Assembly: GCA_035629935.1 (NCBI GenBank)
Contig: DASQLQ010000175.1
Location: 3,606 to 67,605 of the forward strand
DNA from: Actinomycetota bacterium
GTDB taxonomy: Bacteria > Actinomycetota > CADDZG01 > WHSQ01
Reading direction: 5' to 3'
DNA length: 64,000 nucleotides
Of the stretch, positions 28,433 through 37,829 are shown piece after piece (the stretch's first letter is position 1; each line of letters begins with the position of its first letter). Made by a program: the position numbers and the translations under genes. Below the pieces are notes generated by a model. It was not told the DNA's origin and did no database searches. It saw nothing but the letters and a program-made list of their open reading frames with translations.

Positions 28433-29170
28433 ATGCCGCGGGCGGAGGGGTCAATCGGAAATGCGACCGGTGAGCAGCGCGCGGGCCGTCGTCAGGAACT
28501 CCTCGATGCCGCCCACCGAGTGATCCGGCGGGACGGGCCCACCGCCTCGATGGACGACGTGGCAGCCGAAGCCGGAATCACGAAGCCGATCCTGTATCGA
28601 CACTTCGGCAACAAGGGCGGACTCTACAAAGCGCTCGCCGAGCGCTACGTGTGGGCCCTGCTCACCGAACGACGACGGATCGTCCAAGACCAGACCGACC
28701 CGCACCTCCGTCTTCGAGCGACGATCGATGCCTATCTCGCCTTCGTGGAACAAGATCCTCAGGTCTACCGATTCCTTGCGCAACACGCCTTCTACGAACG
28801 ACCCGAAGCCCAGGCCGCCCTCACCGACTACATCCGGACCCTCGCCGGCGATGTCGCGGCCGAGTTGGACGAAGGGCTCAAGCGTGCCGGCGGGAACCGA
28901 GCGGCCGCCCAACCGTGGGCGTTCGGGATCATCGGTCTTGTGCAAATGGCGACCGACTGGTGGCTCGAGGACCGGTCGATGTCCCGCGCCGAATTCGTGG
29001 ATCACCTAACGAACCTCTTATGGACCGGGATGAGTCGGCCTGAAATTGGAAGAGCACGGGGGATAGGCTCTGCGCCCGAGGAAGCCAAGTCTTTGGAAGC
29101 CAAGTCCGAACGCCGAACGTCTCGACGTTCGGCGGTAGAAAAGAAGGTCGGGGGGCCTTTACGTGGGTGA
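28433..29170 (+). CDS. TetR family transcriptional regulator
   Basis: HTH MDDVAAEAGITKPILYRHFGNKGGLY; divergent from the LLM-SCP2 gene; low-complexity C-terminal tail reads through a REP-like repeat. Confidence 0.85.
   Translation: MPRAEGSIGNATGEQRAGRRQELLDAAHRVIRRDGPTASMDDVAAEAGITKPILYRHFGNKGGLYKALAERYVWALLTERRRIVQDQTDPHLRLRATIDAYLAFVEQDPQVYRFLAQHAFYERPEAQAALTDYIRTLAGDVAAELDEGLKRAGGNRAAAQPWAFGIIGLVQMATDWWLEDRSMSRAEFVDHLTNLLWTGMSRPEIGRARGIGSAPEEAKSLEAKSERRTSRRSAVEKKVGGPLRG
29106..29136. repeat. REP-like structured repeat, copy D (inside the tetR 3' coding tail)
   Basis: CCGAACGCC flank + perfect stem CGCCGAACGT / CTCG / ACGTTCGGCG. Confidence 0.65.
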
Positions 29171-29843
29171 GACGGCTCTGAAAGAGGCTGTCGTCGAAGA
29201 GTCGCCGGGGGAAGCGAAACCGGGACGACGGCTTCGGCTTCCCTGGCCGCGCAAGGAACGCGCTGCCACCGTCGCCATGGAGAAGGGCGACGACACCGTC
29301 GAGGAAGTCGAGCCTTCACCGCTGGCTTACAGGACCTTCTCGCCCAAGCTGGCTCCCGCGGCCACTGCGATCGGCGGAGCACTCGCCATCCTCGGCGGCC
29401 TCGGTGCATGGGTGCGCGCAACCCAGGTGGAAACCGAAGGGCTCCCCGCCGAACAAGTTGCCGTCCAGATGGGCTACAACGATGCCGAGGGTTTGGCGAT
29501 CGCCGTTTTCGGTGGCCTCGCGGTGCTGACAGCTCTTCTCTGGATCCGGAAGCGGCCCTTGTTCAAAGTCGTCCCGGCGTTCGTCGTGAAACTCGTTCCA
29601 CTATTGCTGTCGTTGGCCATCGTCGGCCTCAGCGCGTGGCAACTGCCTCTGGTCGATCAAGCCGCGCAGGAGTTAGCACGGCAAGCGATCGAGGATGCGA
29701 ACTTCACTAATTTCCACGCGGGCCTGGGATGGGGCGCTTGGTGTTTGGTCGTCAGCGCGGTGGTGCTGTTTCTCGGGTGCGCCGTCGGAACCTTGAGAGA
29801 ACTGGACCTTCGGAGGGCAAAGAAAAGGGGGGCCGAGGGATGA
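29163..29843 (+). CDS. hypothetical 4-TM membrane protein
   Basis: 226 aa; GTG start overlapping the tetR stop (start uncertain, ATG 29277 possible); four hydrophobic helices, Trp-rich loops. Confidence 0.5.
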   Translation: MGETALKEAVVEESPGEAKPGRRLRLPWPRKERAATVAMEKGDDTVEEVEPSPLAYRTFSPKLAPAATAIGGALAILGGLGAWVRATQVETEGLPAEQVAVQMGYNDAEGLAIAVFGGLAVLTALLWIRKRPLFKVVPAFVVKLVPLLLSLAIVGLSAWQLPLVDQAAQELARQAIEDANFTNFHAGLGWGAWCLVVSAVVLFLGCAVGTLRELDLRRAKKRGAEG

Positions 29844-31372
29844 GGCTCAAGCAAGTCGCGTTCATTATGGCTATCGCACTTCTGGTGGCCGGCTGCAACG
29901 GTCATGCGGTCTTGGTCGAACGCAAAGCGGGTGAAGTCGGCGCGGGCGGCGTCGCGCCCGGAACACTCGACGAAGCAGGCGGTGGCGGCAACGCTCTGTC
30001 CGAAGGTGGCAGCGGAAGCGTCGACCTCGGCGACCAGGCGGCCGGAGGATCGGGAGGAGCGAGTGGCGTGCCGGGCACGAAGGACGCCGGCGAAGCGAAC
30101 TGCGCGACCAACTCGAACCCGGAGCAAGGATTCACCGACAAGACTCTGAAACTCGGAACGATCGTCCCCGTGTCGGGCGCCTTAAGGCCCCTCGGCGAAC
30201 AAACAGCGCGCGTGATGAAGGTTTCTGTTGAAGCAACGATGAACCGACAACAGTTCATCCCCGGCCCCTACTCGAACCTGAACTGGGGCTGTCCCACCCG
30301 CCCCGGCATCTTCGGACGGAAGGTCTCGCTGAAGATCTTCTCGCTGCAAGCGAACACACCGGAAGAGGCGCTTGCCGGTATGAGGCGTCTGATCGACGTC
30401 GAGAACATCTTCCTAGTCCGTGACTGCTATCTACAGACGAGCCTTATGGGCCCGGCCACCCAATACCAGGGCTCGAAAGGTGTACCGGGGATCTGGTGCC
30501 ACTTCTCCGAGATGCCCTACCCGGAGCTGGCTCCATGGAACTTCGCTCCCGGGGCCGATCCCCAGGTCCTATCTGCCTTGCACACCGGTTTGTTGGTCAA
30601 ACAGTTCGACAAGGAACGTCTCGCGATCCTTGCGGACCCAACCGCGAAAAGCACGACGGTTCGGGCCGCGCTCGCGACCGCCAAGTATCTGAAGCACCCG
30701 ATCCCCTCGGACTGCGTTGTGTACAAGCGCGCCCAGGAAGCGCCGAATGGGATGAGGTCGGAGATCGCCGCGCTCCGCACCTGCTACGGGGGTCAGGCCC
30801 CCGACGCCGTTATCGCTCTCGATGCACTCAACGGTGTATTCGGCGCGCTCGAGGCAAAACAGCAGGGTTGGCGGCCCGCCGACTCCGGCGTGAAGTGGTC
30901 GTGCACCGGAACCTCTTGTTGGATCACGAGCCTTGCGGAGCTGTGCGCAAACGCGTGCGAGGGGATGTTGACCGACTGCGCGACCCTGCCCTGTGTGCCG
31001 TTCGCGAGTCCGAAGAAATATCCGGCCGTCGAAGCTCTCGAGCGAACCAGAACCCAGAACTTCCCGCAGGAGCCGCAAGACATCCTGACGTATGCCCCCG
31101 CGGCGATCACCGGAGGGATCGCGCTATGGCTCACGATGACCGGCCCCGATCTGTCGCGCGAGAAGTTCCGGGAAACGATGGAGAACGACCTCAAGAACTG
31201 GAGTGCAGGCATCGGACCGGTGATCAACATCACCCCTGACGATCACTTCGGAGCCGCAGCGGGTTGGATCATCGAGTTCACCGGACGAAGCAGCTGGTTC
31301 AAAGACCAGAGCGGCGGATTCCTGACACTCGATGATGTTGGGGTCCCCTACTCGATAGCGGTCGGGAACTGA
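29840..31372 (+). CDS. ABC transporter substrate-binding lipoprotein (LivJ/K-like, type 1 periplasmic binding fold)
   Basis: ATGA coupling; lipobox LLVAGC; Gly/Ser-rich linker; LKLGTIVPVSGALRPLGEQ typical of Leu/Ile/Val-binding family. Confidence 0.8.
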   Translation: MRLKQVAFIMAIALLVAGCNGHAVLVERKAGEVGAGGVAPGTLDEAGGGGNALSEGGSGSVDLGDQAAGGSGGASGVPGTKDAGEANCATNSNPEQGFTDKTLKLGTIVPVSGALRPLGEQTARVMKVSVEATMNRQQFIPGPYSNLNWGCPTRPGIFGRKVSLKIFSLQANTPEEALAGMRRLIDVENIFLVRDCYLQTSLMGPATQYQGSKGVPGIWCHFSEMPYPELAPWNFAPGADPQVLSALHTGLLVKQFDKERLAILADPTAKSTTVRAALATAKYLKHPIPSDCVVYKRAQEAPNGMRSEIAALRTCYGGQAPDAVIALDALNGVFGALEAKQQGWRPADSGVKWSCTGTSCWITSLAELCANACEGMLTDCATLPCVPFASPKKYPAVEALERTRTQNFPQEPQDILTYAPAAITGGIALWLTMTGPDLSREKFRETMENDLKNWSAGIGPVINITPDDHFGAAAGWIIEFTGRSSWFKDQSGGFLTLDDVGVPYSIAVGN

Positions 31373-31373
31373 C

Positions 31374-32840
31374 GTGCGAACAGTGAAGCGCTTGACACTG
31401 GTAGGGATCATCGGGCTGCTCATCACCGCGCTGGTAACGCCGCCCGTTGCCGTTGCCCAATCCGACGATCTGAACTACTCGATCAAGGAGGCGCGGGCGT
31501 ATGCGCAGAAGGCCTCCCTCGACAAGAACGTGGTCGAGGCAGTGCCGAAGTGCAACCCCGACGAGGACAAGTACAAGTGCGACGAAGGACAGTGGAACCA
31601 CAAGCCGAACTGCCCGAAAGAGGTCGAGATCGGCCCTTCGGGAAAGGTTCCGACCCCCAAGCCACCCGATGCCGAGGCAGCAAGCGGCGGGGCGGGAGAC
31701 ACGGCCGGCGGAGAACAACCCCCGCCTCAATCGAGTCCCATCCGATACAACCGATTCGTAGCACTCGGCACCTTGTCGCGCATCGCCGGGTTGAATGAAG
31801 CGCGTGGCTTCGCATCGCGCATCTACGTCGATCTGTCCGGTCGTGACGATGGCGAAGCGCATACCGAGAGCGAGGCCGTGGGCACCCAACGCAGATGGGA
31901 GGAACGTTGCTTCCCCGACGGCGCGGCGAACGACGGCGGCAGCGATTACAGCCACATGTTCTCTCGCTCCAACACGCAGCTCTCGACCTACCACTTCACG
32001 GAATGTCACAAGCGGGATTGCTTCGAGCAAGCAACCGGTCCGGGCACGTTCGGGGCGGACGCCGAGAAGGCCACTGCGATCGTCGACCTTCACGAAGAGG
32101 ACGGGGAGGTCGTCGGTAAGCTCTCTTCCGTTGTCGAGGACCTGAACTATGGCGGAGGCGCACTTACGATCGAATCGGTCGAGACATTCATCGACTTCCG
32201 GTCCGACGGCACACCGCAAGGTCTGAAGTGGTCCGTGAGCTCGACGGCGAATGGCGTGAAGCTCGGCGGCCAGCCCATCACCCTGCCGCCCGGAGAGATG
32301 ATCTCCCAACCCGGCATCGCGGTCGGCATGGCAGCCCCTTACGTGAACGCGTCGGAGGACGGCACGAAACTCACGATCGTCGCCGCCGGTCTGACACTCG
32401 GAACCGACCAACAGGCAGTTTTCGTGGGGGGAGCGGAACTGCTCGCCGGATTCGGCGGTGGCCTGGGTGATTTCGAACTGCCTCCACTCGACGAAACCGA
32501 GCCGCCAACCACGACGGATGTGGGCGGCGGAGGCGGTGACGACATCACCTCTCCCGTCGGTGGCATCGGTTCCGTGGGAGGAAGCAGCGGGTTCGACGTT
32601 GCCGCACCTCTGTCGGAGGACGCGACCGCACCCGTTGCCGCAGGAGAACCCGAAGAGATCCTCATCTATGAGATGGCAACGGGCAGGGGCGCCGTTCCCG
32701 CGATCATCGCGTTGGGGATCGTGATGTGGTTCTTGTTATTGAGCCGCTGGCTGCAACGGTTCACCTGGGGTCGCAAGCTGACGCGCTACCAACCGTTCAG
32801 AACTGTCGACTGGGTCTACCGGGCCTTCGTCAAGACATGA
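31374..32840 (+). CDS. hypothetical secreted protein with C-terminal TM anchor (no recognisable family)
   Basis: 488 aa; GTG 1 nt after the SBP stop; signal peptide; Cys-rich N-terminal region; Gly/Asp-rich linker; C-terminal TM helix. Confidence 0.6.
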   Translation: MRTVKRLTLVGIIGLLITALVTPPVAVAQSDDLNYSIKEARAYAQKASLDKNVVEAVPKCNPDEDKYKCDEGQWNHKPNCPKEVEIGPSGKVPTPKPPDAEAASGGAGDTAGGEQPPPQSSPIRYNRFVALGTLSRIAGLNEARGFASRIYVDLSGRDDGEAHTESEAVGTQRRWEERCFPDGAANDGGSDYSHMFSRSNTQLSTYHFTECHKRDCFEQATGPGTFGADAEKATAIVDLHEEDGEVVGKLSSVVEDLNYGGGALTIESVETFIDFRSDGTPQGLKWSVSSTANGVKLGGQPITLPPGEMISQPGIAVGMAAPYVNASEDGTKLTIVAAGLTLGTDQQAVFVGGAELLAGFGGGLGDFELPPLDETEPPTTTDVGGGGGDDITSPVGGIGSVGGSSGFDVAAPLSEDATAPVAAGEPEEILIYEMATGRGAVPAIIALGIVMWFLLLSRWLQRFTWGRKLTRYQPFRTVDWVYRAFVKT

Positions 32841-33766
32841 TCACTCTCGCGGCGCCCGTAACGGAAGTAACAGTCTTCGGACTGTCGTCGGGCGCGGTGT
32901 ACGCGCTGATCGCCCTGGGACTCGTCCTGATCTATCGCACTACGGGTGTGATGAACTTCGCGCAATGGGCGATCGGTTTGATCGCTCTCGTCATGTATGT
33001 CGTCCTCAGTAACCTCGGCCTTCCGGGACCCGTTGCCGCCGCGATCGGGATGGCGGCGGCTGTGGGGGGTGGTGTTCTTTCCTACCGACTCGTCTTCCGT
33101 CGCATCTCCGGCTCCGGCCAGATCATCGTCATCCTGATCTCCATCGGTATAGCTCAGTTCTTCTCGTCACTCGCGGCCTTCGCTCTCGGCTTCGAACAGT
33201 TCACGCGTTTGCAACCATGGCTGCCGGTGGTCGATTGGCACATCGGGTCGGTTGCCGTCCGGTCTTCCGAGATCATCACTGCGGCAACCGCTATCGGCGT
33301 CGCGTTCGGGTTCCTTCTCTGGTTCCGTTTGTCGCGCACCGGCCGGGCGTTGCGAGCCGTGGCTCAGAATCGCGAAGCCGCGATGCTCGCCGGCATCGAT
33401 GCTGTTCGCTACTCGTCGATCGCATGGGGGATCGGATCTGCACTCGGCGCTCTGGCTCTGCTGCTCGTCCTTCCCCACACGGCGGGCGAACAAGGTGGAC
33501 TGATCACGGTCTTCGACGTAACCCCGTTCGGCACGTTGCTGATCCCTGCGTTCGGGGCAGCGTTGGTCGGCGGCCTCGTGCACCTGCCGATGGCACTAGT
33601 CGGAGGTTTCATTTTCGGCCTCTCACGCGAACTCCTCGTTCTCGCCCCACAACCGTGGAACAACTTGAGGTCTGCCGTTGCCGCGATCCTCATCGTCTTC
33701 TTGTTGCTGCTTAGGACGGAACGCTTCTTCGCCTCGAGACAGGAGCTGGAGGCGCTAGGAGGATGA
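32837..33766 (+). CDS. livH: branched-chain amino acid-type ABC permease (LivH-like)
   Basis: ATGA coupling; YALIALGLVLIYRTTGVMNFAQ motif. Confidence 0.85.
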   Translation: MITLAAPVTEVTVFGLSSGAVYALIALGLVLIYRTTGVMNFAQWAIGLIALVMYVVLSNLGLPGPVAAAIGMAAAVGGGVLSYRLVFRRISGSGQIIVILISIGIAQFFSSLAAFALGFEQFTRLQPWLPVVDWHIGSVAVRSSEIITAATAIGVAFGFLLWFRLSRTGRALRAVAQNREAAMLAGIDAVRYSSIAWGIGSALGALALLLVLPHTAGEQGGLITVFDVTPFGTLLIPAFGAALVGGLVHLPMALVGGFIFGLSRELLVLAPQPWNNLRSAVAAILIVFLLLLRTERFFASRQELEALGG

Positions 33767-34881
33767 CGACCGACGTACTTCAGCCGGTTACAACACAACC
33801 GGCAGAGGAAACCTCCTCCGACGAGAAGGCCGAGCGGCCTAGGTGGCGTCCTACACGCAGTCACCTCATCGCTGCAGCTGCTCTGATCGGTCTGGCCGCT
33901 CTCCCGATCCCGTTCGGAGACTTCGGATTCTTCGTCGGTCAGTACGCGTTGATCTACGCGATCATCGGCCTCTCGGTCGTCGTGGTGACCGGTTACGCAG
34001 GGCTCATCTCGCTCATGCCGTACTCCTTCGCCGGCATCGGAGCGATCATCGTCGGCGTCGCTCTGGGCTCGTGGGGTTGGCCCTTCTGGCTCGCACTTCC
34101 GCTGGGTGCGGTCGCAACCGTGCCGATATCCATCCTCGTAGGGATCTCATCGGTCCGTTTGAAGGGCCTGTACCTCGCGATCGCAACGCTTACGTTCTCG
34201 AATGCTCTCGGCGAAACCTTCTTCAAATGGGACGCGGCCACCGGCGGCGCTGCCGGTTGGGTCGTGGAGCGACCGATCGTCGGCCCGATCGATTTCAGCA
34301 GCGACATCAGCTTCTACGTCTTGTGCCTGGTTGCTGTCGGCCTGCTGGTGTGGATGGTTGAAGGACTACGCACCTCGCGCACCGGCCGAGCAATGCTCGC
34401 GGTGAAGGACAACGAACTCGAGGCGCAGGCCCTGGGCATCAACGTCTACAGGACGAAACTGGTGGCGTTCGTGCTGTCCGGTCTGATCGCAGGCTTCGGT
34501 GGGGGGTTGCTGGCCCTGCTGCTCATCACCGTGACTCCTTCGGCGTTCCAGTCCCCGCTGGCCGAAGCGACTTCTATCCTGCTCGTCACGCTCGTTGCGA
34601 TCGGCGGGATGGATCGGGCGATCGGTCCCTTGTTCGGTGCAGTCGCACTCGTCATCCAGCAACAGGTCTTCCAGGGGGCCGAGTTCTTCTTCGCTTTCGT
34701 CGGTATCTACGCAGCCGTGGTGCTGATCGTCTTCATGATGTTCCGTCCCGGCGGGATCGTTCAGGCAGGCAAGCGGTTGGTCGAGGTGACCAAGGCTCGA
34801 CCCGCACTGGGGCTCGCTATCTGGGCCTTCGTACTCATCACCAACGTCGGAGGAGCATGGCTCTTCCTGGCCCTCTCATGA
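33763..34881 (+). CDS. livM: branched-chain amino acid-type ABC permease (LivM-like)
   Basis: 372 aa; ATGA coupling; GYAGLISLMPYSFAGIGA motif. Confidence 0.85.
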   Translation: MTTDVLQPVTTQPAEETSSDEKAERPRWRPTRSHLIAAAALIGLAALPIPFGDFGFFVGQYALIYAIIGLSVVVVTGYAGLISLMPYSFAGIGAIIVGVALGSWGWPFWLALPLGAVATVPISILVGISSVRLKGLYLAIATLTFSNALGETFFKWDAATGGAAGWVVERPIVGPIDFSSDISFYVLCLVAVGLLVWMVEGLRTSRTGRAMLAVKDNELEAQALGINVYRTKLVAFVLSGLIAGFGGGLLALLLITVTPSAFQSPLAEATSILLVTLVAIGGMDRAIGPLFGAVALVIQQQVFQGAEFFFAFVGIYAAVVLIVFMMFRPGGIVQAGKRLVEVTKARPALGLAIWAFVLITNVGGAWLFLALS

Positions 34882-35663
34882 GTCTCCTTCGAACCCGCGA
34901 CATCAGCATCCACTTCGGGGGGATCGCCGCGCTCGATGAGGTCGACCTGTCGATCGAGGCCGGCGAGATCGTCGGGATCCTCGGCCCCAACGGTGCCGGT
35001 AAGTCGACCCTGTTCAACGTCATCTCGGGTTTCCTCAAGCCCGCCCACGGTCGGATCCTCTACATGGAGGAAGAGATAACCCACCTTTTGCCCTACGAGC
35101 GCGTCGGGATCGGCCTCGGGCGAACCTTCCAGCACGTGCGACTGTTCCGTAACCTGACCGTGTACGAGAACCTGCTGGCAGCGCAGCACCGGCACCTCTC
35201 CAGTGGATCGTTCGCGGCGATGTTGCGGCTGCCGGGATGGCGGCGCGACGAGGACCAAGCCCACGCCCGCGTCGAACAGATCCTCGACGTGGTCAACCTG
35301 CGGCCGTGGAGAGACGCCCGGCCGGGCGAACTGTCCTATGGAACAACCCGTTTCCTGGAGCTGGCCGCCGTTCTGTCGATCAAACCGAAGGTGCTGCTGC
35401 TCGACGAGCCGGCTTCCGGTATCCAACAGAAAGAAGTTGAAGCTCTCGGCCCCCTCTTGAAGCAGATCCGGGACGAGACCGGCGTCGCAATCCTGCTGAT
35501 CGAGCACGACATGGGATTGCTTCTCAAGACTTCGGAACGCATCTACGCACTCGACTTCGGCAAGATCATCGCGGAGGGTACCCCCGACGAAGTCACGGCG
35601 AACGATCAGGTGCTCGAGTCTTATCTCGGCCGCACGAGGAGGAAATCCACTGCTACAGCTTGA
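34878..35663 (+). CDS. livG: ABC transporter ATP-binding protein (LivG-like)
   Basis: ATGA coupling; Walker A GPNGAGKST, signature LSYGTTRFLE, Walker B LLLLDEP. Confidence 0.9.
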   Translation: MSLLRTRDISIHFGGIAALDEVDLSIEAGEIVGILGPNGAGKSTLFNVISGFLKPAHGRILYMEEEITHLLPYERVGIGLGRTFQHVRLFRNLTVYENLLAAQHRHLSSGSFAAMLRLPGWRRDEDQAHARVEQILDVVNLRPWRDARPGELSYGTTRFLELAAVLSIKPKVLLLDEPASGIQQKEVEALGPLLKQIRDETGVAILLIEHDMGLLLKTSERIYALDFGKIIAEGTPDEVTANDQVLESYLGRTRRKSTATA

Positions 35664-36375
35664 GCGGATCGACGCGTTCTACGGCCCGATAAAGGTTCTG
35701 TTCGACGTGAACCTCGAAGTGGGGGAAGGCGAGATCGTCGCGCTACTCGGTACCAACGGCGCAGGCAAGACGACGATCCTTCGAGTGATCTCCGGGATCC
35801 TGCGACCGACCGTCGGCGACGCCACCTGGAAAGGTGAGTCGATCATCGGTCAGCGCCCTTCCGAGATCGTCAGGAAGGGGATCGTTCAGATGCCCGGGGG
35901 CCGCGGGGTCTTCCCCGGGATGACCGTGTACGAGAACCTCGAGATCGCAGGCTTCCTGTATGGACGGGATAACGCAAAACGCAAGCACATGATCGACAAG
36001 GTGTTCGAGTTCTTTCCCAAGCTCGTCAAGAAACGCCGTCAGGCGGCCGGGAGCATGTCGGGGGGCGAGCAACAGATGCTCACGTTGGCGAAGTCGTTCA
36101 TCATGGACCCCGACCTTCTGCTCATCGACGAGCTCTCGTTGGGTCTGGCACCCAAGGTAGTGCAAGACCTGCTCGAGATCATCCGCAAGTTCAACTCCGA
36201 AGGGGTAGCAGTCGTGATCGTCGATCAGCACGTCGATCTGGCGCTCGACGTTGCCTCGCGCGCGTACTTCATAGAGCGGGGTGAGATCCGTTTCTCCGGA
36301 CCGGCGGAGGAGCTACGGGGCCGCGACGACCTGCTGCGCTCGGTGTTCCTGAGAGGAGAGATGACGAAGGCATGA
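35650..36375 (+). CDS. livF: ABC transporter ATP-binding protein (LivF-like); probable CTG start
   Basis: Walker A GTNGAGKTT, signature MSGGEQQML, Walker B LLLIDE. First canonical start (GTG 35707) would remove the conserved N-terminal strand/A-loop (RIDAFYGPIKVLFDV); CTG 35650 lies 7 nt after GAGGAGG. Confidence 0.8.
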   Translation: MLQLERIDAFYGPIKVLFDVNLEVGEGEIVALLGTNGAGKTTILRVISGILRPTVGDATWKGESIIGQRPSEIVRKGIVQMPGGRGVFPGMTVYENLEIAGFLYGRDNAKRKHMIDKVFEFFPKLVKKRRQAAGSMSGGEQQMLTLAKSFIMDPDLLLIDELSLGLAPKVVQDLLEIIRKFNSEGVAVVIVDQHVDLALDVASRAYFIERGEIRFSGPAEELRGRDDLLRSVFLRGEMTKA

Positions 36376-36797
36376 GCACGGTCACCGCACCGGTCGGGCT
36401 TGCGACCTCGAACGCAGCCAGACTCAAGTTCCTCAGGTTCGTTCTGTTCGCCGCCGCCGTCGGCCATCTCGTCGTTGGGCTGTCGTTCTGGTTCGCACCG
36501 GAGCTCGCTGTAGAAGAGATCCTGGCGTGGGGGCCGGCCTCGGGATGGACGACCATCCTCGGTTCGTACGATCTTTCGGTCGCGTTCGCTCTATTGCTGG
36601 CGTTCCGCGACCCGCTTCATAACCTTGGGATAGTCCGATTCGTTGGGTTCCTCCTCGTGCTGCATGCCGGAACGCACGCTTACTACACGGCTTTCGGAGA
36701 TTCCCCGCCACGGTTCTGGTTCGTGATCTCGTATCTGGCTGCGACGGGCATCGTTCTGCTGTGGCTCGCATCGGCCGTACAGAAGAGCGAGACCTAG
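36372..36797 (+). CDS. hypothetical 4-TM membrane protein
   Basis: 141 aa; ATGA coupling to livF; four hydrophobic helices. Confidence 0.5.
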   Translation: MSTVTAPVGLATSNAARLKFLRFVLFAAAVGHLVVGLSFWFAPELAVEEILAWGPASGWTTILGSYDLSVAFALLLAFRDPLHNLGIVRFVGFLLVLHAGTHAYYTAFGDSPPRFWFVISYLAATGIVLLWLASAVQKSET

Positions 36798-37829
36798 GTG
36801 CTGGCAGCAAGATTCCATGCGTCCGATCGGGCGCTCAAACTCGAAGACGTTCCGATACCCGAGCCAGGCCCCCTCGACGTCGTCGTGAAGGTCGAGGCGT
36901 GCGGCATCTGCCTCTCCGATGTGCATCTGATCGACGGGTCGTTCCCCGCACTAACCGAGGTCGTCACGATGGGCCACGAGTCGGCCGGGACCGTTCACAA
37001 GACCGGCGAGATGGTTCAGGGTTGGAAGCCCGGTGACCGCGTCGTCTTGATGGCAGGGCGTCCTTGCATGAAGTGCACGCGCTGCACCCAAGGACGCGTA
37101 GATGCATGCCTGCAGCTCGAGCTGATGGGCTTCCACTACGACGGGGCCTGGGCTGAGTACATCTCGGTTCCCTATTTCACGCTGACCCCTGTGCCGGACG
37201 GGATCGACCTCGAGCAAGCTGCGATCCTCGTAGATGCCGTCGCCACGCCTTACGCCGCCATCACGGAGCGAGCGGAGCTCAAGCCCGGCGAGAGCATCGG
37301 TCTGTGGGGCATCGGTGGGCTCGGCACCCACGCGGTTCAGACGGCTCGCTTGATCGGTGCCGGCCTGATCGTGGCCGTCGACCCGTTACCGAGCGCCCGC
37401 GATCGGGCACTCAAACTCGGAGCCGACGTGGCTCTCGATCCACTCGAGGTCGACGTGGTCTCGGAGGTTCAACGAATCACCGGGGGCACGGGTCTCGACG
37501 TGACACTCGATCTAGTCGGATCGAACAGGGTTCTCCAACAGTGTGTGCAGTGTCTTGCAGCCGGGGGCCGCGCGGTGATCGTTGGAATATCGATGGACCA
37601 ACTCGAGCTCGGTCCGACCATCCTCCTGACGGTGCAACGCCAAACGATCATGGGCCATCTCGGGTATTCGAAGAAGAACCTGGACGACTTGGTGAAGCTT
37701 CTACACAGTGGGCGGCTCGACCTAACCGCTTCCATCTCGGACGTGATGCCGTTGGAGGAAGTGCCCGAAGGCGTGCGCCGGCTCAGCGAGAAGGACGGGG
37801 ATCCGGTCCGATTGGTGGTGAAGCCATGA
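36798..37829 (+). CDS. zinc-dependent alcohol dehydrogenase (MDR family)
   Basis: 343 aa; GTG immediately after the upstream TAG; GICLSDVH, GHESAG zinc motifs, structural Zn Cys cluster CMKCTRC, GIGGLG NAD motif. Confidence 0.85.
   Translation: MLAARFHASDRALKLEDVPIPEPGPLDVVVKVEACGICLSDVHLIDGSFPALTEVVTMGHESAGTVHKTGEMVQGWKPGDRVVLMAGRPCMKCTRCTQGRVDACLQLELMGFHYDGAWAEYISVPYFTLTPVPDGIDLEQAAILVDAVATPYAAITERAELKPGESIGLWGIGGLGTHAVQTARLIGAGLIVAVDPLPSARDRALKLGADVALDPLEVDVVSEVQRITGGTGLDVTLDLVGSNRVLQQCVQCLAAGGRAVIVGISMDQLELGPTILLTVQRQTIMGHLGYSKKNLDDLVKLLHSGRLDLTASISDVMPLEEVPEGVRRLSEKDGDPVRLVVKP

What the first reader, a model, noticed from the sequence alone, without database searches (positions are those of the whole stretch)
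31374..32840. Orphan 488-aa secreted, C-terminally anchored protein wedged between the SBP and permease genes of an ABC importer
The gene starts 1 nt after the SBP stop and overlaps livH by ATGA, so it is a stoichiometric part of the transporter operon. The protein is built as:
- a signal peptide
- a Cys-rich N-terminal segment (CNPDEDKYKCDEGQWNHKPNCP)
- a Pro/Gly linker
- a central domain of about 250 aa with no motif I recognise
- an acidic Gly-rich linker
- a single C-terminal TM helix

The position and topology suggest an accessory extracytoplasmic component, for example for substrate capture or processing. Standard Liv-type systems have no such part.
Basis: inference. Interest (0 to 1): 0.6.

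Follow-up and report, generated by a model that had tools for sequence, protein, structure and literature searches.

The report
Extra anchored subunit of Liv-type importer
The 488-residue gene is real. It is not an orphan but an unannotated surface protein that is always encoded between the binding protein and the permease of one actinobacterial nutrient importer, so it is probably an undescribed extra part of that pump, with unknown role.

Summary
ORF 31374-32840 starts 1 nt after the binding-protein stop and overlaps livH by ATGA. The protein has a signal peptide, six invariant Cys, a new-looking all-beta ectodomain, a disordered acidic linker of about 74 residues and a C-terminal TM helix.

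"Orphan" is wrong. There are 76 clusters at 90% identity and 58 representatives at 50%, all in uncultured Actinomycetota and all unnamed.

In all 25 related loci examined, the gene lies between a divergent Peripla_BP_6 lipoprotein and livH. Where the fetched flank allows, the full order is 4-TM protein, SBP, X, LivH, LivM, LivG, LivF. Among 41 related genomes, X and the SBP orthologue occur in the same seven.

There is no Pfam, NCBIfam, PDB-sequence or Foldseek match. Profile-profile comparison (96%) links residues 227-345 to a larger set of C-terminally anchored proteins that follow livF in other actinobacterial Liv operons (20 of 24 checked). Those in turn relate to NCBIfam choice-of-anchor P.

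Best reading: a dedicated accessory subunit, docked by its TM helix and tail, whose ectodomain works with the tethered SBP. The mechanism is inferred only. Earlier notes of this scan describe similar accessories on other genomes.

The parts
29163..29843 (+). TM4a: about 200-aa membrane protein with four hydrophobic segments by my reading, first gene of the conserved cassette. Start uncertain; its stop overlaps the SBP start.
   Evidence: tblastn finds an orthologue (37-51% identity) directly upstream of the SBP in every related locus whose flank reaches that far. The three-way alignment has conserved YRTFSxKLAP and FHAGxGWGAW motifs. No reproducible Pfam hit in 10 orthologues; the weak Rhomboid and Trp_oprn_chp hits are not reproduced.
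29837..31372 (+). Substrate-binding lipoprotein: lipobox LVAG|C, then a Gly/Ala/Ser-rich tether of about 80 aa, then a divergent Peripla_BP_6 domain. I count 12 Cys in the mature protein.
   Evidence: Pfam PF13458, E 1.6e-11. No PDB sequence hit at E<=0.01. Orthologues (E<1e-170) occur only in the seven related genomes that also carry X, always adjacent to it.
31374..32840 (+). X: the 488-aa secreted, C-terminally anchored protein (the finding).
   Evidence: ORF. Junctions. 76 homologous clusters. AF2 model with mean pLDDT 75.5 and most core blocks above 85.
31374..31457 (+). Sec-type signal peptide (aa 1-28; cleavage probably AVA|QS).
   Evidence: Basic n-region followed by a hydrophobic helix at residues 2-21 in the model. 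Least conserved N-terminal region, 20% identity.
31458..32459 (+). Ordered ectodomain (aa 29-362). Contains a long N-terminal strand (YSIKEARAY), a three-Cys segment (60/69/80), an ordered Gly/Pro segment (83-122), and an up-and-down beta meander with the EERC motif (176-179) and invariant H194, S197, S199, C211, C216, D278, D329, Q347, E355.
   Evidence: Alignment A1. AF2 secondary structure and pLDDT. No Foldseek hit at E<0.001 in PDB or BFVD, TM<=0.24. No Pfam, NCBIfam or PDB-sequence hit.
32052..32432 (+). Sub-region aa 227-353, homologous to the Liv-operon-terminal anchored proteins and, through them, to choice-of-anchor P domains. Shared motif: GGALTIESVETFIDFRSDGTP...GVKLGGQPI.
   Evidence: hhalign A1 vs A3: 96.6%, E 4.9e-10. 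A1 vs A4: 96.4%, E 1.3e-9. Reversed and shuffled controls below 1%. A4 vs canonical choice_anch_P domains: 96.4%. A1 vs canonical: only 30%, in the same register.
32460..32681 (+). Disordered acidic Gly/Pro/Thr-rich tether (aa 363-436).
   Evidence: pLDDT 26-34. Net charge -15. Sequence poorly conserved (32% identity), but length is 67-80 aa in 30 of 33 homologues.
32682..32753 (+). C-terminal TM helix (aa 437-460). The cytoplasmic half, WFLLLSRW, is strongly conserved.
   Evidence: Helix 440-460 in the model. Per-column conservation.
32754..32837 (+). Basic cytoplasmic tail (aa 461-488), LQRFTWGRKLTRYQPFRTVDWVYRAFVKT. Proposed docking element.
   Evidence: Most conserved region, 73% mean identity, with W465, D479, W480, R483, F485 and K487 invariant; R458 and W459 at the end of the TM helix are invariant too. 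Net charge of residues 458-488 is +7. Two short predicted helices, the second amphipathic.
32837..33766 (+). LivH-type permease.
   Evidence: PF02653, E 9e-25. 62-82% identical in the X cassettes. These permeases form one clade with 100/100 support.
33763..34881 (+). LivM-type permease.
   Evidence: PF02653, E 4.5e-33; NF008450 LivM, E 1.8e-31.
34857..35663 (+). LivG-type ATPase. The real start is probably ATG 34878, read from the ORF translation, which would overlap the livM stop.
   Evidence: ORF. Orthologues are 70-83% identical and align from query residue 7-10. L001 orthologue carries PF00005 and PF12399.
35650..36375 (+). LivF-type ATPase. The start lies upstream of the first canonical start, GTG 35707.
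   Evidence: In nearly all loci, orthologues align from residue 1 of the frame extended to 35650. L001 orthologue carries PF00005.

Best explanation
X is a dedicated accessory subunit of a seven-gene HAAT/Liv-type ABC importer found in uncultured soil Actinomycetota.

**Proposed working**
1. X is exported by Sec and its signal peptide is cut off.
2. It stays in the cytoplasmic membrane through its C-terminal helix.
3. The conserved inner half of that helix and the 28-residue basic tail dock on the LivHM(GF) core.
4. The all-beta, disulfide-stabilised ectodomain floats on a flexible acidic tether of about 74 residues. The SBP lipoprotein floats on its own tether of about 80 residues at a similar height.
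5. The two cooperate on the extracytoplasmic side, in substrate capture and hand-over or in keeping the SBP at the permease.

**Shown**
- Gene reality.
- Domain anatomy and topology, from sequence and model.
- Strict synteny and co-occurrence with this SBP and permease lineage.
- Remote homology of residues 227-345 to other Liv-operon-linked anchored proteins.

**Inferred**
- Physical docking by the helix and tail.
- Any contact with the SBP or the substrate.
- The disulfides.
For: - **Coupling.** X is translationally coupled on both sides: a 1-nt gap to the SBP stop and an ATGA overlap with livH.
- **Synteny.** In all 25 related loci, X lies between the SBP gene and livH. Where the flank allows, the order is TM4a, SBP, X, LivH, LivM, LivG, LivF, down to 27-35% identity.
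- **Co-occurrence.** X is in 7 of 41 related genomes, and SBP orthologues (E<1e-170) are in exactly the same 7, adjacent to it.
- **Single origin.** The cassette's LivH proteins form one clade with 100/100 support.
- **Topology.** The ectodomain has net charge -20, the linker -15 and the tail +7.
- **Tail conservation.** The tail and the inner half of the TM helix are the most conserved parts (73% against 54% in the core). That is not expected of a mere anchor.
- **Linker.** Its length is held at 67-80 aa in 30 of 33 homologues although its sequence drifts.
- **Relatives in other Liv operons.** A distantly homologous class (hhalign 96%, controls below 1%) has the same signal peptide, beta domain, linker and C-terminal TM plan. 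It lies directly after livF in 20 of 24 loci checked.
- **Contrast.** Three of the four related proteins without Liv neighbours end in sortase-like signals instead.
Against: - There is no experimental or structural evidence of any contact between X and LivHMGF or the SBP.
- The fold matches nothing in PDB or BFVD, so no function can be transferred.
- X evolves faster than the other cassette proteins (35-52% identity against 51-83% in the same loci). That also fits a surface protein under diversifying pressure.
- The long flexible tether argues against a rigid conduit fixed on the permease.
- Invariant polar residues (EERC, H194, S197, S199, D278, D329) could instead mark a catalytic or metal-binding site.
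Confidence: 0.6

Rival explanations
1. X is an extracytoplasmic enzyme or metal-dependent processing protein. It releases the transported molecule from a larger or conjugated precursor next to the importer, and has no structural role in the pump.
For: Polar residues are invariant within the beta core: E176, E177, R178, C179, H194, S197, S199, D278, D329, Q347, E355. The fold is unknown, so an active site cannot be excluded. In this window the neighbours are catabolic: TetR, Zn-ADH, P450.
Against: No match to any hydrolase, lyase or oxidoreductase family at sequence or fold level. The homologous Liv-linked relatives lack these residues yet keep the operon linkage. The strongly conserved cytoplasmic tail is unexplained by a purely extracellular enzyme.
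Confidence: 0.13
2. X is a trans-membrane regulator. The ectodomain senses substrate or SBP occupancy, and the conserved tail contacts the LivG/LivF ATPases or the coupling helices to gate ATP hydrolysis.
For: The tail is the best conserved region, basic, and predicted as two short helices. The bitopic topology fits a signal relay.
Against: A disordered tether of about 74 residues between ectodomain and helix is a poor transmitter of conformational change. The Liv-terminal relatives have short, variable tails, so gating by the tail cannot be the ancestral role.
Confidence: 0.12
3. X is an ordinary surface or wall-associated protein (adhesin-like, as choice-of-anchor domains usually are) that is merely co-transcribed with the transporter.
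For: X is remotely related to choice-of-anchor P domains, which occur as tandem repeats in very large surface proteins. X evolves faster than its neighbours.
Against: The position inside the operon, between SBP and permease, is kept in all 25 loci. X co-occurs perfectly with the SBP lineage. It is single copy in the genome. Overlapping start and stop codons on both sides make hitch-hiking unlikely.
Confidence: 0.07

Closest known systems
Liv-operon-terminal, C-terminally anchored proteins of Actinomycetota (for example the protein after livF in Nitriliruptor alkaliphilus, which NCBI names 'choice-of-anchor P family protein')
   Same: They share the plan of signal peptide, long-stranded all-beta ectodomain, low-complexity tether of 50-75 aa and C-terminal TM helix. 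They are encoded inside Liv/HAAT-type operons. Homology over about 120 residues is demonstrable (hhalign 96%). Like X, they have no PDB fold match.
   Different: They follow livF, whereas X lies between the SBP and livH. They lack X's six Cys, the EERC motif and the long conserved tail. X gets no NF040603 hit. Their function is equally unknown.
NCBIfam NF040603, choice-of-anchor P family (uncharacterised surface-protein domain with alternative C-terminal anchors)
   Same: The relationship is transitive: X to the Liv-terminal class (96%), and that class to canonical domains (96%). The direct X-to-canonical alignment falls in the same register. Anchors vary among relatives: a plain TM helix in Liv-linked members and sortase-like signals in others.
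   Different: X does not reach the model at any threshold tried. Direct profile-profile probability is only 30%. Canonical members are often tandem arrays in proteins of up to about 2,500 aa.
LptC of the LptB2FGC lipopolysaccharide ABC transporter (comparison from general knowledge)
   Same: Both are bitopic proteins with an all-beta extracytoplasmic domain that serve as an extra subunit of an ABC transporter. In LptC the single TM helix packs against the transporter's membrane domains.
   Different: LptC has an N-terminal helix, a rigid beta-jellyroll bridge and an export role in diderms. X has a C-terminal helix plus tail, a long flexible tether and an importer context, with no significant fold match in PDB. 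This is an analogy of logic only.
Canonical LivJ/K-LivHMGF and UrtABCDE (HAAT family, TC 3.A.1.4)
   Same: All have two BPD_transp_2 permeases, two ATPases and a Peripla_BP_6 binding protein.
   Different: To my knowledge, the textbook systems have five components and no bitopic accessory or 4-TM partner. Two literature searches found no description of one.

Membership tests
HAAT / Liv-type ABC importer (the cassette as a whole) | Two BPD_transp_2 (LivH/LivM-type) permeases | tested here: met
   PF02653, E 9e-25 and 4.5e-33; NF008011 and NF008450 hits below the equivalog cut-offs.
HAAT / Liv-type ABC importer (the cassette as a whole) | Peripla_BP_6-type binding protein and two LivG/LivF-type ATPases | tested here: met
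   SBP matches PF13458 at 44.9 bits against a cut-off of 31.7. The ATPase orthologues in L001 (71-75% identical to the window's) carry PF00005, and the LivG-type one also carries PF12399. The window's own ATPases were not scanned directly.
NCBIfam NF040603 choice-of-anchor P | Score at or above the curated cut-off (27 bits) against the family HMM | tested here: not met
   No hit for X at E<=1. No hit anywhere in the genome at E<=10.
NCBIfam NF040603 choice-of-anchor P | Profile-level homology to bona fide members | tested here: inconclusive
   Direct A1 vs 20 canonical domains: 30% probability, E 5.5e-4. Transitive route: X to the Liv-terminal class at 96.4%, and that class to canonical domains at 96.4%. 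This supports superfamily-level kinship for residues 227-353 only.
Liv-operon-terminal anchored protein class | Signal peptide, beta ectodomain, low-complexity tether and C-terminal TM helix, encoded within a Liv-type operon | tested here: met
   architecture; operon context; homology.
Liv-operon-terminal anchored protein class | Position directly after livF | tested here: not met
   X lies between the SBP and livH in all 25 loci.
Sortase substrates (LPXTG / LAXTG sorting signal) | LPXTG-like motif, TM segment and a short basic tail | tested here: not met
   No LPXTG or LAXTG motif, only a conserved A/P-T-G before the helix. The tail is 28 aa and is the most conserved region, which makes no sense for a cleaved signal.
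LptC-like ABC accessory | N-terminal TM helix and a beta-jellyroll fold | tested here: not met
   The helix is C-terminal. No Foldseek hit reaches E<0.001; the only Lpt entries listed (LptDE-YifL) are at E 0.34-0.44.
Second substrate-binding protein (Peripla_BP fold) | Two alpha/beta lobes matching a periplasmic binding protein family | tested here: not met
   The model is all-beta. No SBP family hit.
Rhombosortase / GlyGly-CTERM system, with TM4a as the protease | A rhomboid-family protease next to a GlyGly-CTERM substrate | tested here: not met
   The single weak Rhomboid hit of TM4a (E 0.045) is not reproduced in 10 orthologues. X has no GlyGly-CTERM-type short tail.

The most novel reading that the evidence does not exclude
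The ectodomain is a new fold that itself binds the probably hydrophobic substrate in the cell-wall zone and passes it to the tethered SBP. The helix and tail hold it at the permease. That would make this the first three-station extracytoplasmic relay described for a binding-protein-dependent ABC importer. The Liv-terminal choice-of-anchor-P-like proteins would then be the widespread, simpler version of the same device across Actinomycetota.
Probability: 0.2. Interest if true: 0.8.

Novelty: new variant of a known kind. Interest (0 to 1): 0.62.

Why it matters
Binding-protein-dependent ABC importers are textbook five-part machines. Here a sixth and a seventh protein (X and the 4-TM protein) are inherited with the pump as one unit. 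A related anchored protein accompanies many other Liv-type pumps across Actinomycetota. If these are true subunits, they change the parts list of a major transporter family in a phylum that dominates soils. They would also give a first functional context to the uncharacterised choice-of-anchor P domain, and they add a beta fold with no solved counterpart. Nitriliruptor alkaliphilus is a cultured organism that carries the related post-livF form, so the question can be tested at the bench.

Tried and rejected
- **Family scans of X.** Pfam and NCBIfam scans of X and of all 33 aligned homologues gave nothing reproducible.
- **PDB by sequence.** Profile searches with A1 and A4 gave zero hits. The SBP alone also gave zero.
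- **Foldseek.** The X model against PDB and BFVD, and the X-like model against PDB, gave only generic porin-like beta-meander hits at E>=0.007 and TM<=0.24. I rejected these as non-specific.
- **Rhomboid idea.** A rhomboid or rhombosortase role for the upstream 4-TM protein is rejected, because the weak hit is not reproduced.
- **Sortase anchoring.** Rejected: no motif, and the tail is conserved.
- **L028 homologue search.** The third-last homologue search, with the L028 protein, returned only 2 hits and added little.
- **LivH tree.** It shows the X cassettes as one clade, but too few accessory-free systems were sampled to say whether the accessory is ancestral to a HAAT subclade.
- **Literature.** Searches for an accessory of Liv/HAAT systems, and for choice-of-anchor, found nothing relevant.
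- **Model coordinates.** I could not inspect them, so Cys pairing and any groove or cavity remain unknown.
Full report
**1. The observation**

The ORF listing gives a 488-aa ORF at 31374..32840 on the + strand, starting with GTG. The sequence shows the SBP stop TGA at 31370-31372, one base, and then the GTG. ATGA at 32837-32840 joins the X stop to the start of the first permease.

Pfam identifies the neighbours:
- The SBP is Peripla_BP_6 (E 1.6e-11).
- Two BPD_transp_2 permeases follow X.
- NCBIfam gives LivH/LivM-type and UrtB/UrtC-type hits for the permeases, below the equivalog cut-offs.

The real SBP start is most likely ATG 29837. That start gives MRLKQVAFIMAIALLVAGC, a lipoprotein signal with lipobox LVAG|C.

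Three corrections are needed:
- **Not an orphan.** See section 2.
- **The 'Pro/Gly linker' (83-122) is not a linker.** It is conserved, with G105, G108 and P117 invariant, and it is predicted ordered (pLDDT 90-95).
- **There is a tail after the TM helix.** It is basic, 28 residues long, and was not noticed.

**2. A small, coherent, unannotated family**

- The 5.8-billion-protein collection returns 76 clusters. Most are full length and 40-85% identical to the window protein. Where named, every one is 'hypothetical protein' from Actinomycetota MAGs.
- An exhaustive phmmer search of 1.84 billion representatives returns only 58 proteins.
- The genome has one copy.
- In a sample of 401 genomes of the phylum, X proper occurs in 14 genomes of four families.
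- In the 41 closest genomes, it occurs in 7.

Alignment A1 (33 sequences) has these invariant positions:
- six Cys (60, 69, 80, 179, 211, 216)
- the EERC motif (176-179)
- H194, S197, S199, D278-G279, D329-G330, Q347, E355
- R458, W459, W465, D479, W480, R483, F485, K487

By region, mean identity to the window protein is as follows:

| Region | Mean identity |
|---|---|
| Signal peptide | 20% |
| Beta core | 54% |
| Disordered linker | 32% |
| TM helix | 62% |
| Tail | 73% |

The linker keeps a length of 67-80 residues in 30 of 33 homologues. Net charges are -20 for the ectodomain, -15 for the linker and +7 for the tail. This fits an outside/inside topology with the tail in the cytoplasm.

**3. 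Synteny**

In L001 (42% identity to X) and L002 (50%), the called genes are, in order:
- an unannotated protein of about 190-210 aa
- Peripla_BP_6
- X
- two BPD_transp_2 permeases
- two ATPases

In L001 the genes overlap by 4 nt from the first gene through the first ATPase.

tblastn with the window's proteins against the first 25 loci shows X between the SBP gene and livH in every one. The full order TM4a, SBP, X, LivH, LivM, LivG, LivF appears wherever the flank is long enough.

Identity ranges in those loci:

| Protein | Identity to the window's protein |
|---|---|
| X | 35-52% |
| TM4a | 37-51% |
| SBP | 51-70% |
| LivH | 62-82% |
| LivG | 69-83% |

X and TM4a are therefore the fastest-evolving members of the cassette.

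The divergent subfamily in family f13 (L032) has the same order. The most distant detectable members, P0123 and P0128, are 29-30% identical by phmmer and 27% by tblastn. They still sit between an SBP C-terminus and a BPD_transp_2 permease.

Across 41 relatives, strong SBP orthologues (E<1e-170) occur in exactly the seven genomes that have X, always adjacent to it.

The cassette's LivH proteins form a single clade with 100/100 support on a long branch. The flanks beyond the seven genes vary. A Zn-dependent ADH (62-68% identical) follows the cassette, directly or within a few kb, in five other loci.

**4. Structure**

AlphaFold2 on A1 gives mean pLDDT 75.5 and pTM 0.67. Most blocks of the core (residues 30-362) score 85-97, with dips to 60-77 in loops. 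Its elements are:
- a long N-terminal strand (35-48)
- an up-and-down meander of strands mostly 9-15 residues long
- a disordered stretch at 363-436
- a helix at 440-460
- two short tail helices (464-469 and 475-487)

Foldseek finds nothing at E<0.001 in PDB (best 9e-3) or in BFVD. All TM scores are 0.24 or lower, and the top hits are porins and other generic beta meanders. A PDB profile search by sequence gives zero hits. I could not inspect the coordinates, so disulfide pairing and the presence of a groove are not established.

**5. A wider kinship**

The phylum search also gave weak hits (E 1e-4 to 1e-5) in three genomes. These hits lie in open frames of 477-533 aa (proteins of about 436-498 aa). 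All four such ORFs lie directly after livF in other Liv-type operons. All have a signal peptide, a large ectodomain, a Pro/Gly/Ser-rich tether and a C-terminal TM helix.

NCBIfam NF040603 (choice-of-anchor P) hits one of them above its cut-off and two below it. X itself has no hit.

NF040603 occurs in 71 of 401 genomes of the phylum. Hits are of two kinds:
- full-length tandem domains, often in very large proteins
- partial hits, mostly in open frames of about 390-690 aa

I fetched 20 of the partial-hit loci, with these results:
- Sixteen lie immediately after livF.
- Three without Liv neighbours end in sortase-like signals followed by a TM segment and a short basic tail (IPTTG in two, a less clear ...RTG in the third).
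- One could not be resolved.

Profile-profile comparison gives:

| Comparison | Probability | E-value |
|---|---|---|
| X (A1) vs five such proteins (A3) | 96.6% | 4.9e-10 |
| X (A1) vs 20 such proteins (A4), X residues 227-345 | 96.4% | 1.3e-9 |
| A1 vs reversed or column-shuffled A4 (controls) | below 1% | 0.06-0.98 |
| A4 vs 20 canonical choice_anch_P domains | 96.4% | 1.1e-9 |
| A1 vs 20 canonical choice_anch_P domains (same register) | 30% | 5.5e-4 |

An AF2 model of one Liv-terminal protein (pLDDT 77) has the same overall plan and again no PDB match.

One of these proteins is from Nitriliruptor alkaliphilus, a named species with a single-contig genome. NCBI names it 'choice-of-anchor P family protein'.

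The window's own genome has five Liv-type systems:
- one with X
- one that ends at a contig edge right after livF; a C-terminal fragment of a Liv-terminal-type protein lies at the edge of another contig and may belong to it
- three with no such accessory

**6. Interpretation**

The data show that X is a conserved, co-inherited and translationally coupled member of one HAAT-type importer lineage. Part of its ectodomain shares ancestry with a broader set of anchored proteins that Actinomycetota repeatedly encode inside Liv-type operons.

I infer a dedicated accessory subunit, for three reasons:
- The conserved inner half of the helix and the tail suggest a specific protein contact on the cytoplasmic side, most simply with LivHM or the ATPases.
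- The length-conserved flexible tether mirrors the tether of about 80 residues on the SBP lipoprotein.
- That match suggests the two ectodomains meet at some distance from the membrane.

Whether X binds substrate, binds the SBP, or has a catalytic or regulatory role is open. I give the accessory-subunit reading 0.6 and the rivals smaller shares:

| Reading | Confidence |
|---|---|
| Accessory subunit | 0.60 |
| Processing enzyme | 0.13 |
| Regulator | 0.12 |
| Unrelated surface protein | 0.07 |

The catabolic neighbours are TetR, a luciferase-like monooxygenase, Zn-ADH and P450. Together with the recurrent ADH, they hint at a non-amino-acid, possibly hydrophobic substrate. This is only a hint.

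**7. Comparison and novelty**

- The cassette meets the defining features of HAAT importers.
- X fails the NF040603 membership test but is a remote relative at superfamily level.
- X is not a sortase substrate, not LptC-like in fold or topology, and not a second SBP.
- Two literature searches found no description of an accessory subunit of Liv/HAAT importers.
- Papers that mention choice-of-anchor domains concern other subfamilies.

Earlier notes of this scan describe similar unannotated accessory proteins of Liv-type operons in other genomes. I reached the post-livF class independently. My 20-of-24 count agrees with the 37-of-38 count in one of those notes. What this report adds is the homology link between the mid-operon X family, the terminal class and choice-of-anchor P.

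I rate this a new variant of a known kind: a HAAT importer with additional, uncharacterised subunits.

**8. Limits**

- All X-bearing genomes are MAGs.
- The genome samples are samples, so 'not found' means not found in those searched.

Noticed in passing
window 29163-29843: An unannotated membrane protein of about 200 aa, with four hydrophobic segments by my reading (motifs YRTFSxKLAP and FHAGxGWGAW), is the conserved first gene of the cassette in every related locus whose flank reaches that far. It has no reproducible Pfam family.
   Followed up: partly
window 36372-37829: A Zn-dependent alcohol dehydrogenase (62-68% identical) recurs downstream of the cassette in five other loci (L011, L013, L014, L015, L019). 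In L011 and L015 the small membrane protein at 36372-36797 is also present. This may be a hint to the substrate class.
   Followed up: partly
window 35650-35707: In nearly all loci with enough flank, LivF orthologues align from residue 1 of the frame extended upstream to 35650. The true livF start therefore lies before the first canonical start, GTG 35707, as another first-stage note proposed (CTG start).
   Followed up: partly
window 29837-31372: The SBP is unusual: a lipoprotein with a Gly-rich tether of about 80 aa, 12 Cys in the mature chain by my count (six of them clustered near the C-terminus), and no PDB relative by sequence at E<=0.01.
   Followed up: partly
G000 contigs C121 (13926-17224) and C80 (21616-22149; L073): A second Liv-type operon ends at a contig edge right after livF. 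A C-terminal fragment of a Liv-terminal anchored protein lies at the edge of contig C80, followed by a 175-aa protein with a hydrophobic segment and several C-terminal Cys. These are probably one locus split by the assembly.
   Followed up: partly
L037 6618-8105 (Nitriliruptor alkaliphilus): A cultured actinobacterium encodes a 496-aa 'choice-of-anchor P family protein' starting 3 nt after livF. It is a possible experimental entry point for the whole class.
   Followed up: partly
L042, L047, L049: Proteins of similar size with partial choice_anch_P hits but no Liv genes within about 7 kb end in sortase-like signals followed by a TM segment and a short basic tail (IPTTG in L042 and L047, a less clear ...RTG in L049). 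Liv-linked relatives have plain TM anchors instead.
   Followed up: no
window 32679-32690 (aa 436-439): A conserved A/P-T-G-x-G motif lies just outside the TM helix of X (ATGRGAV). It might be a relic of an ancestral LPXTG-type sorting signal. This is speculative.
   Followed up: no
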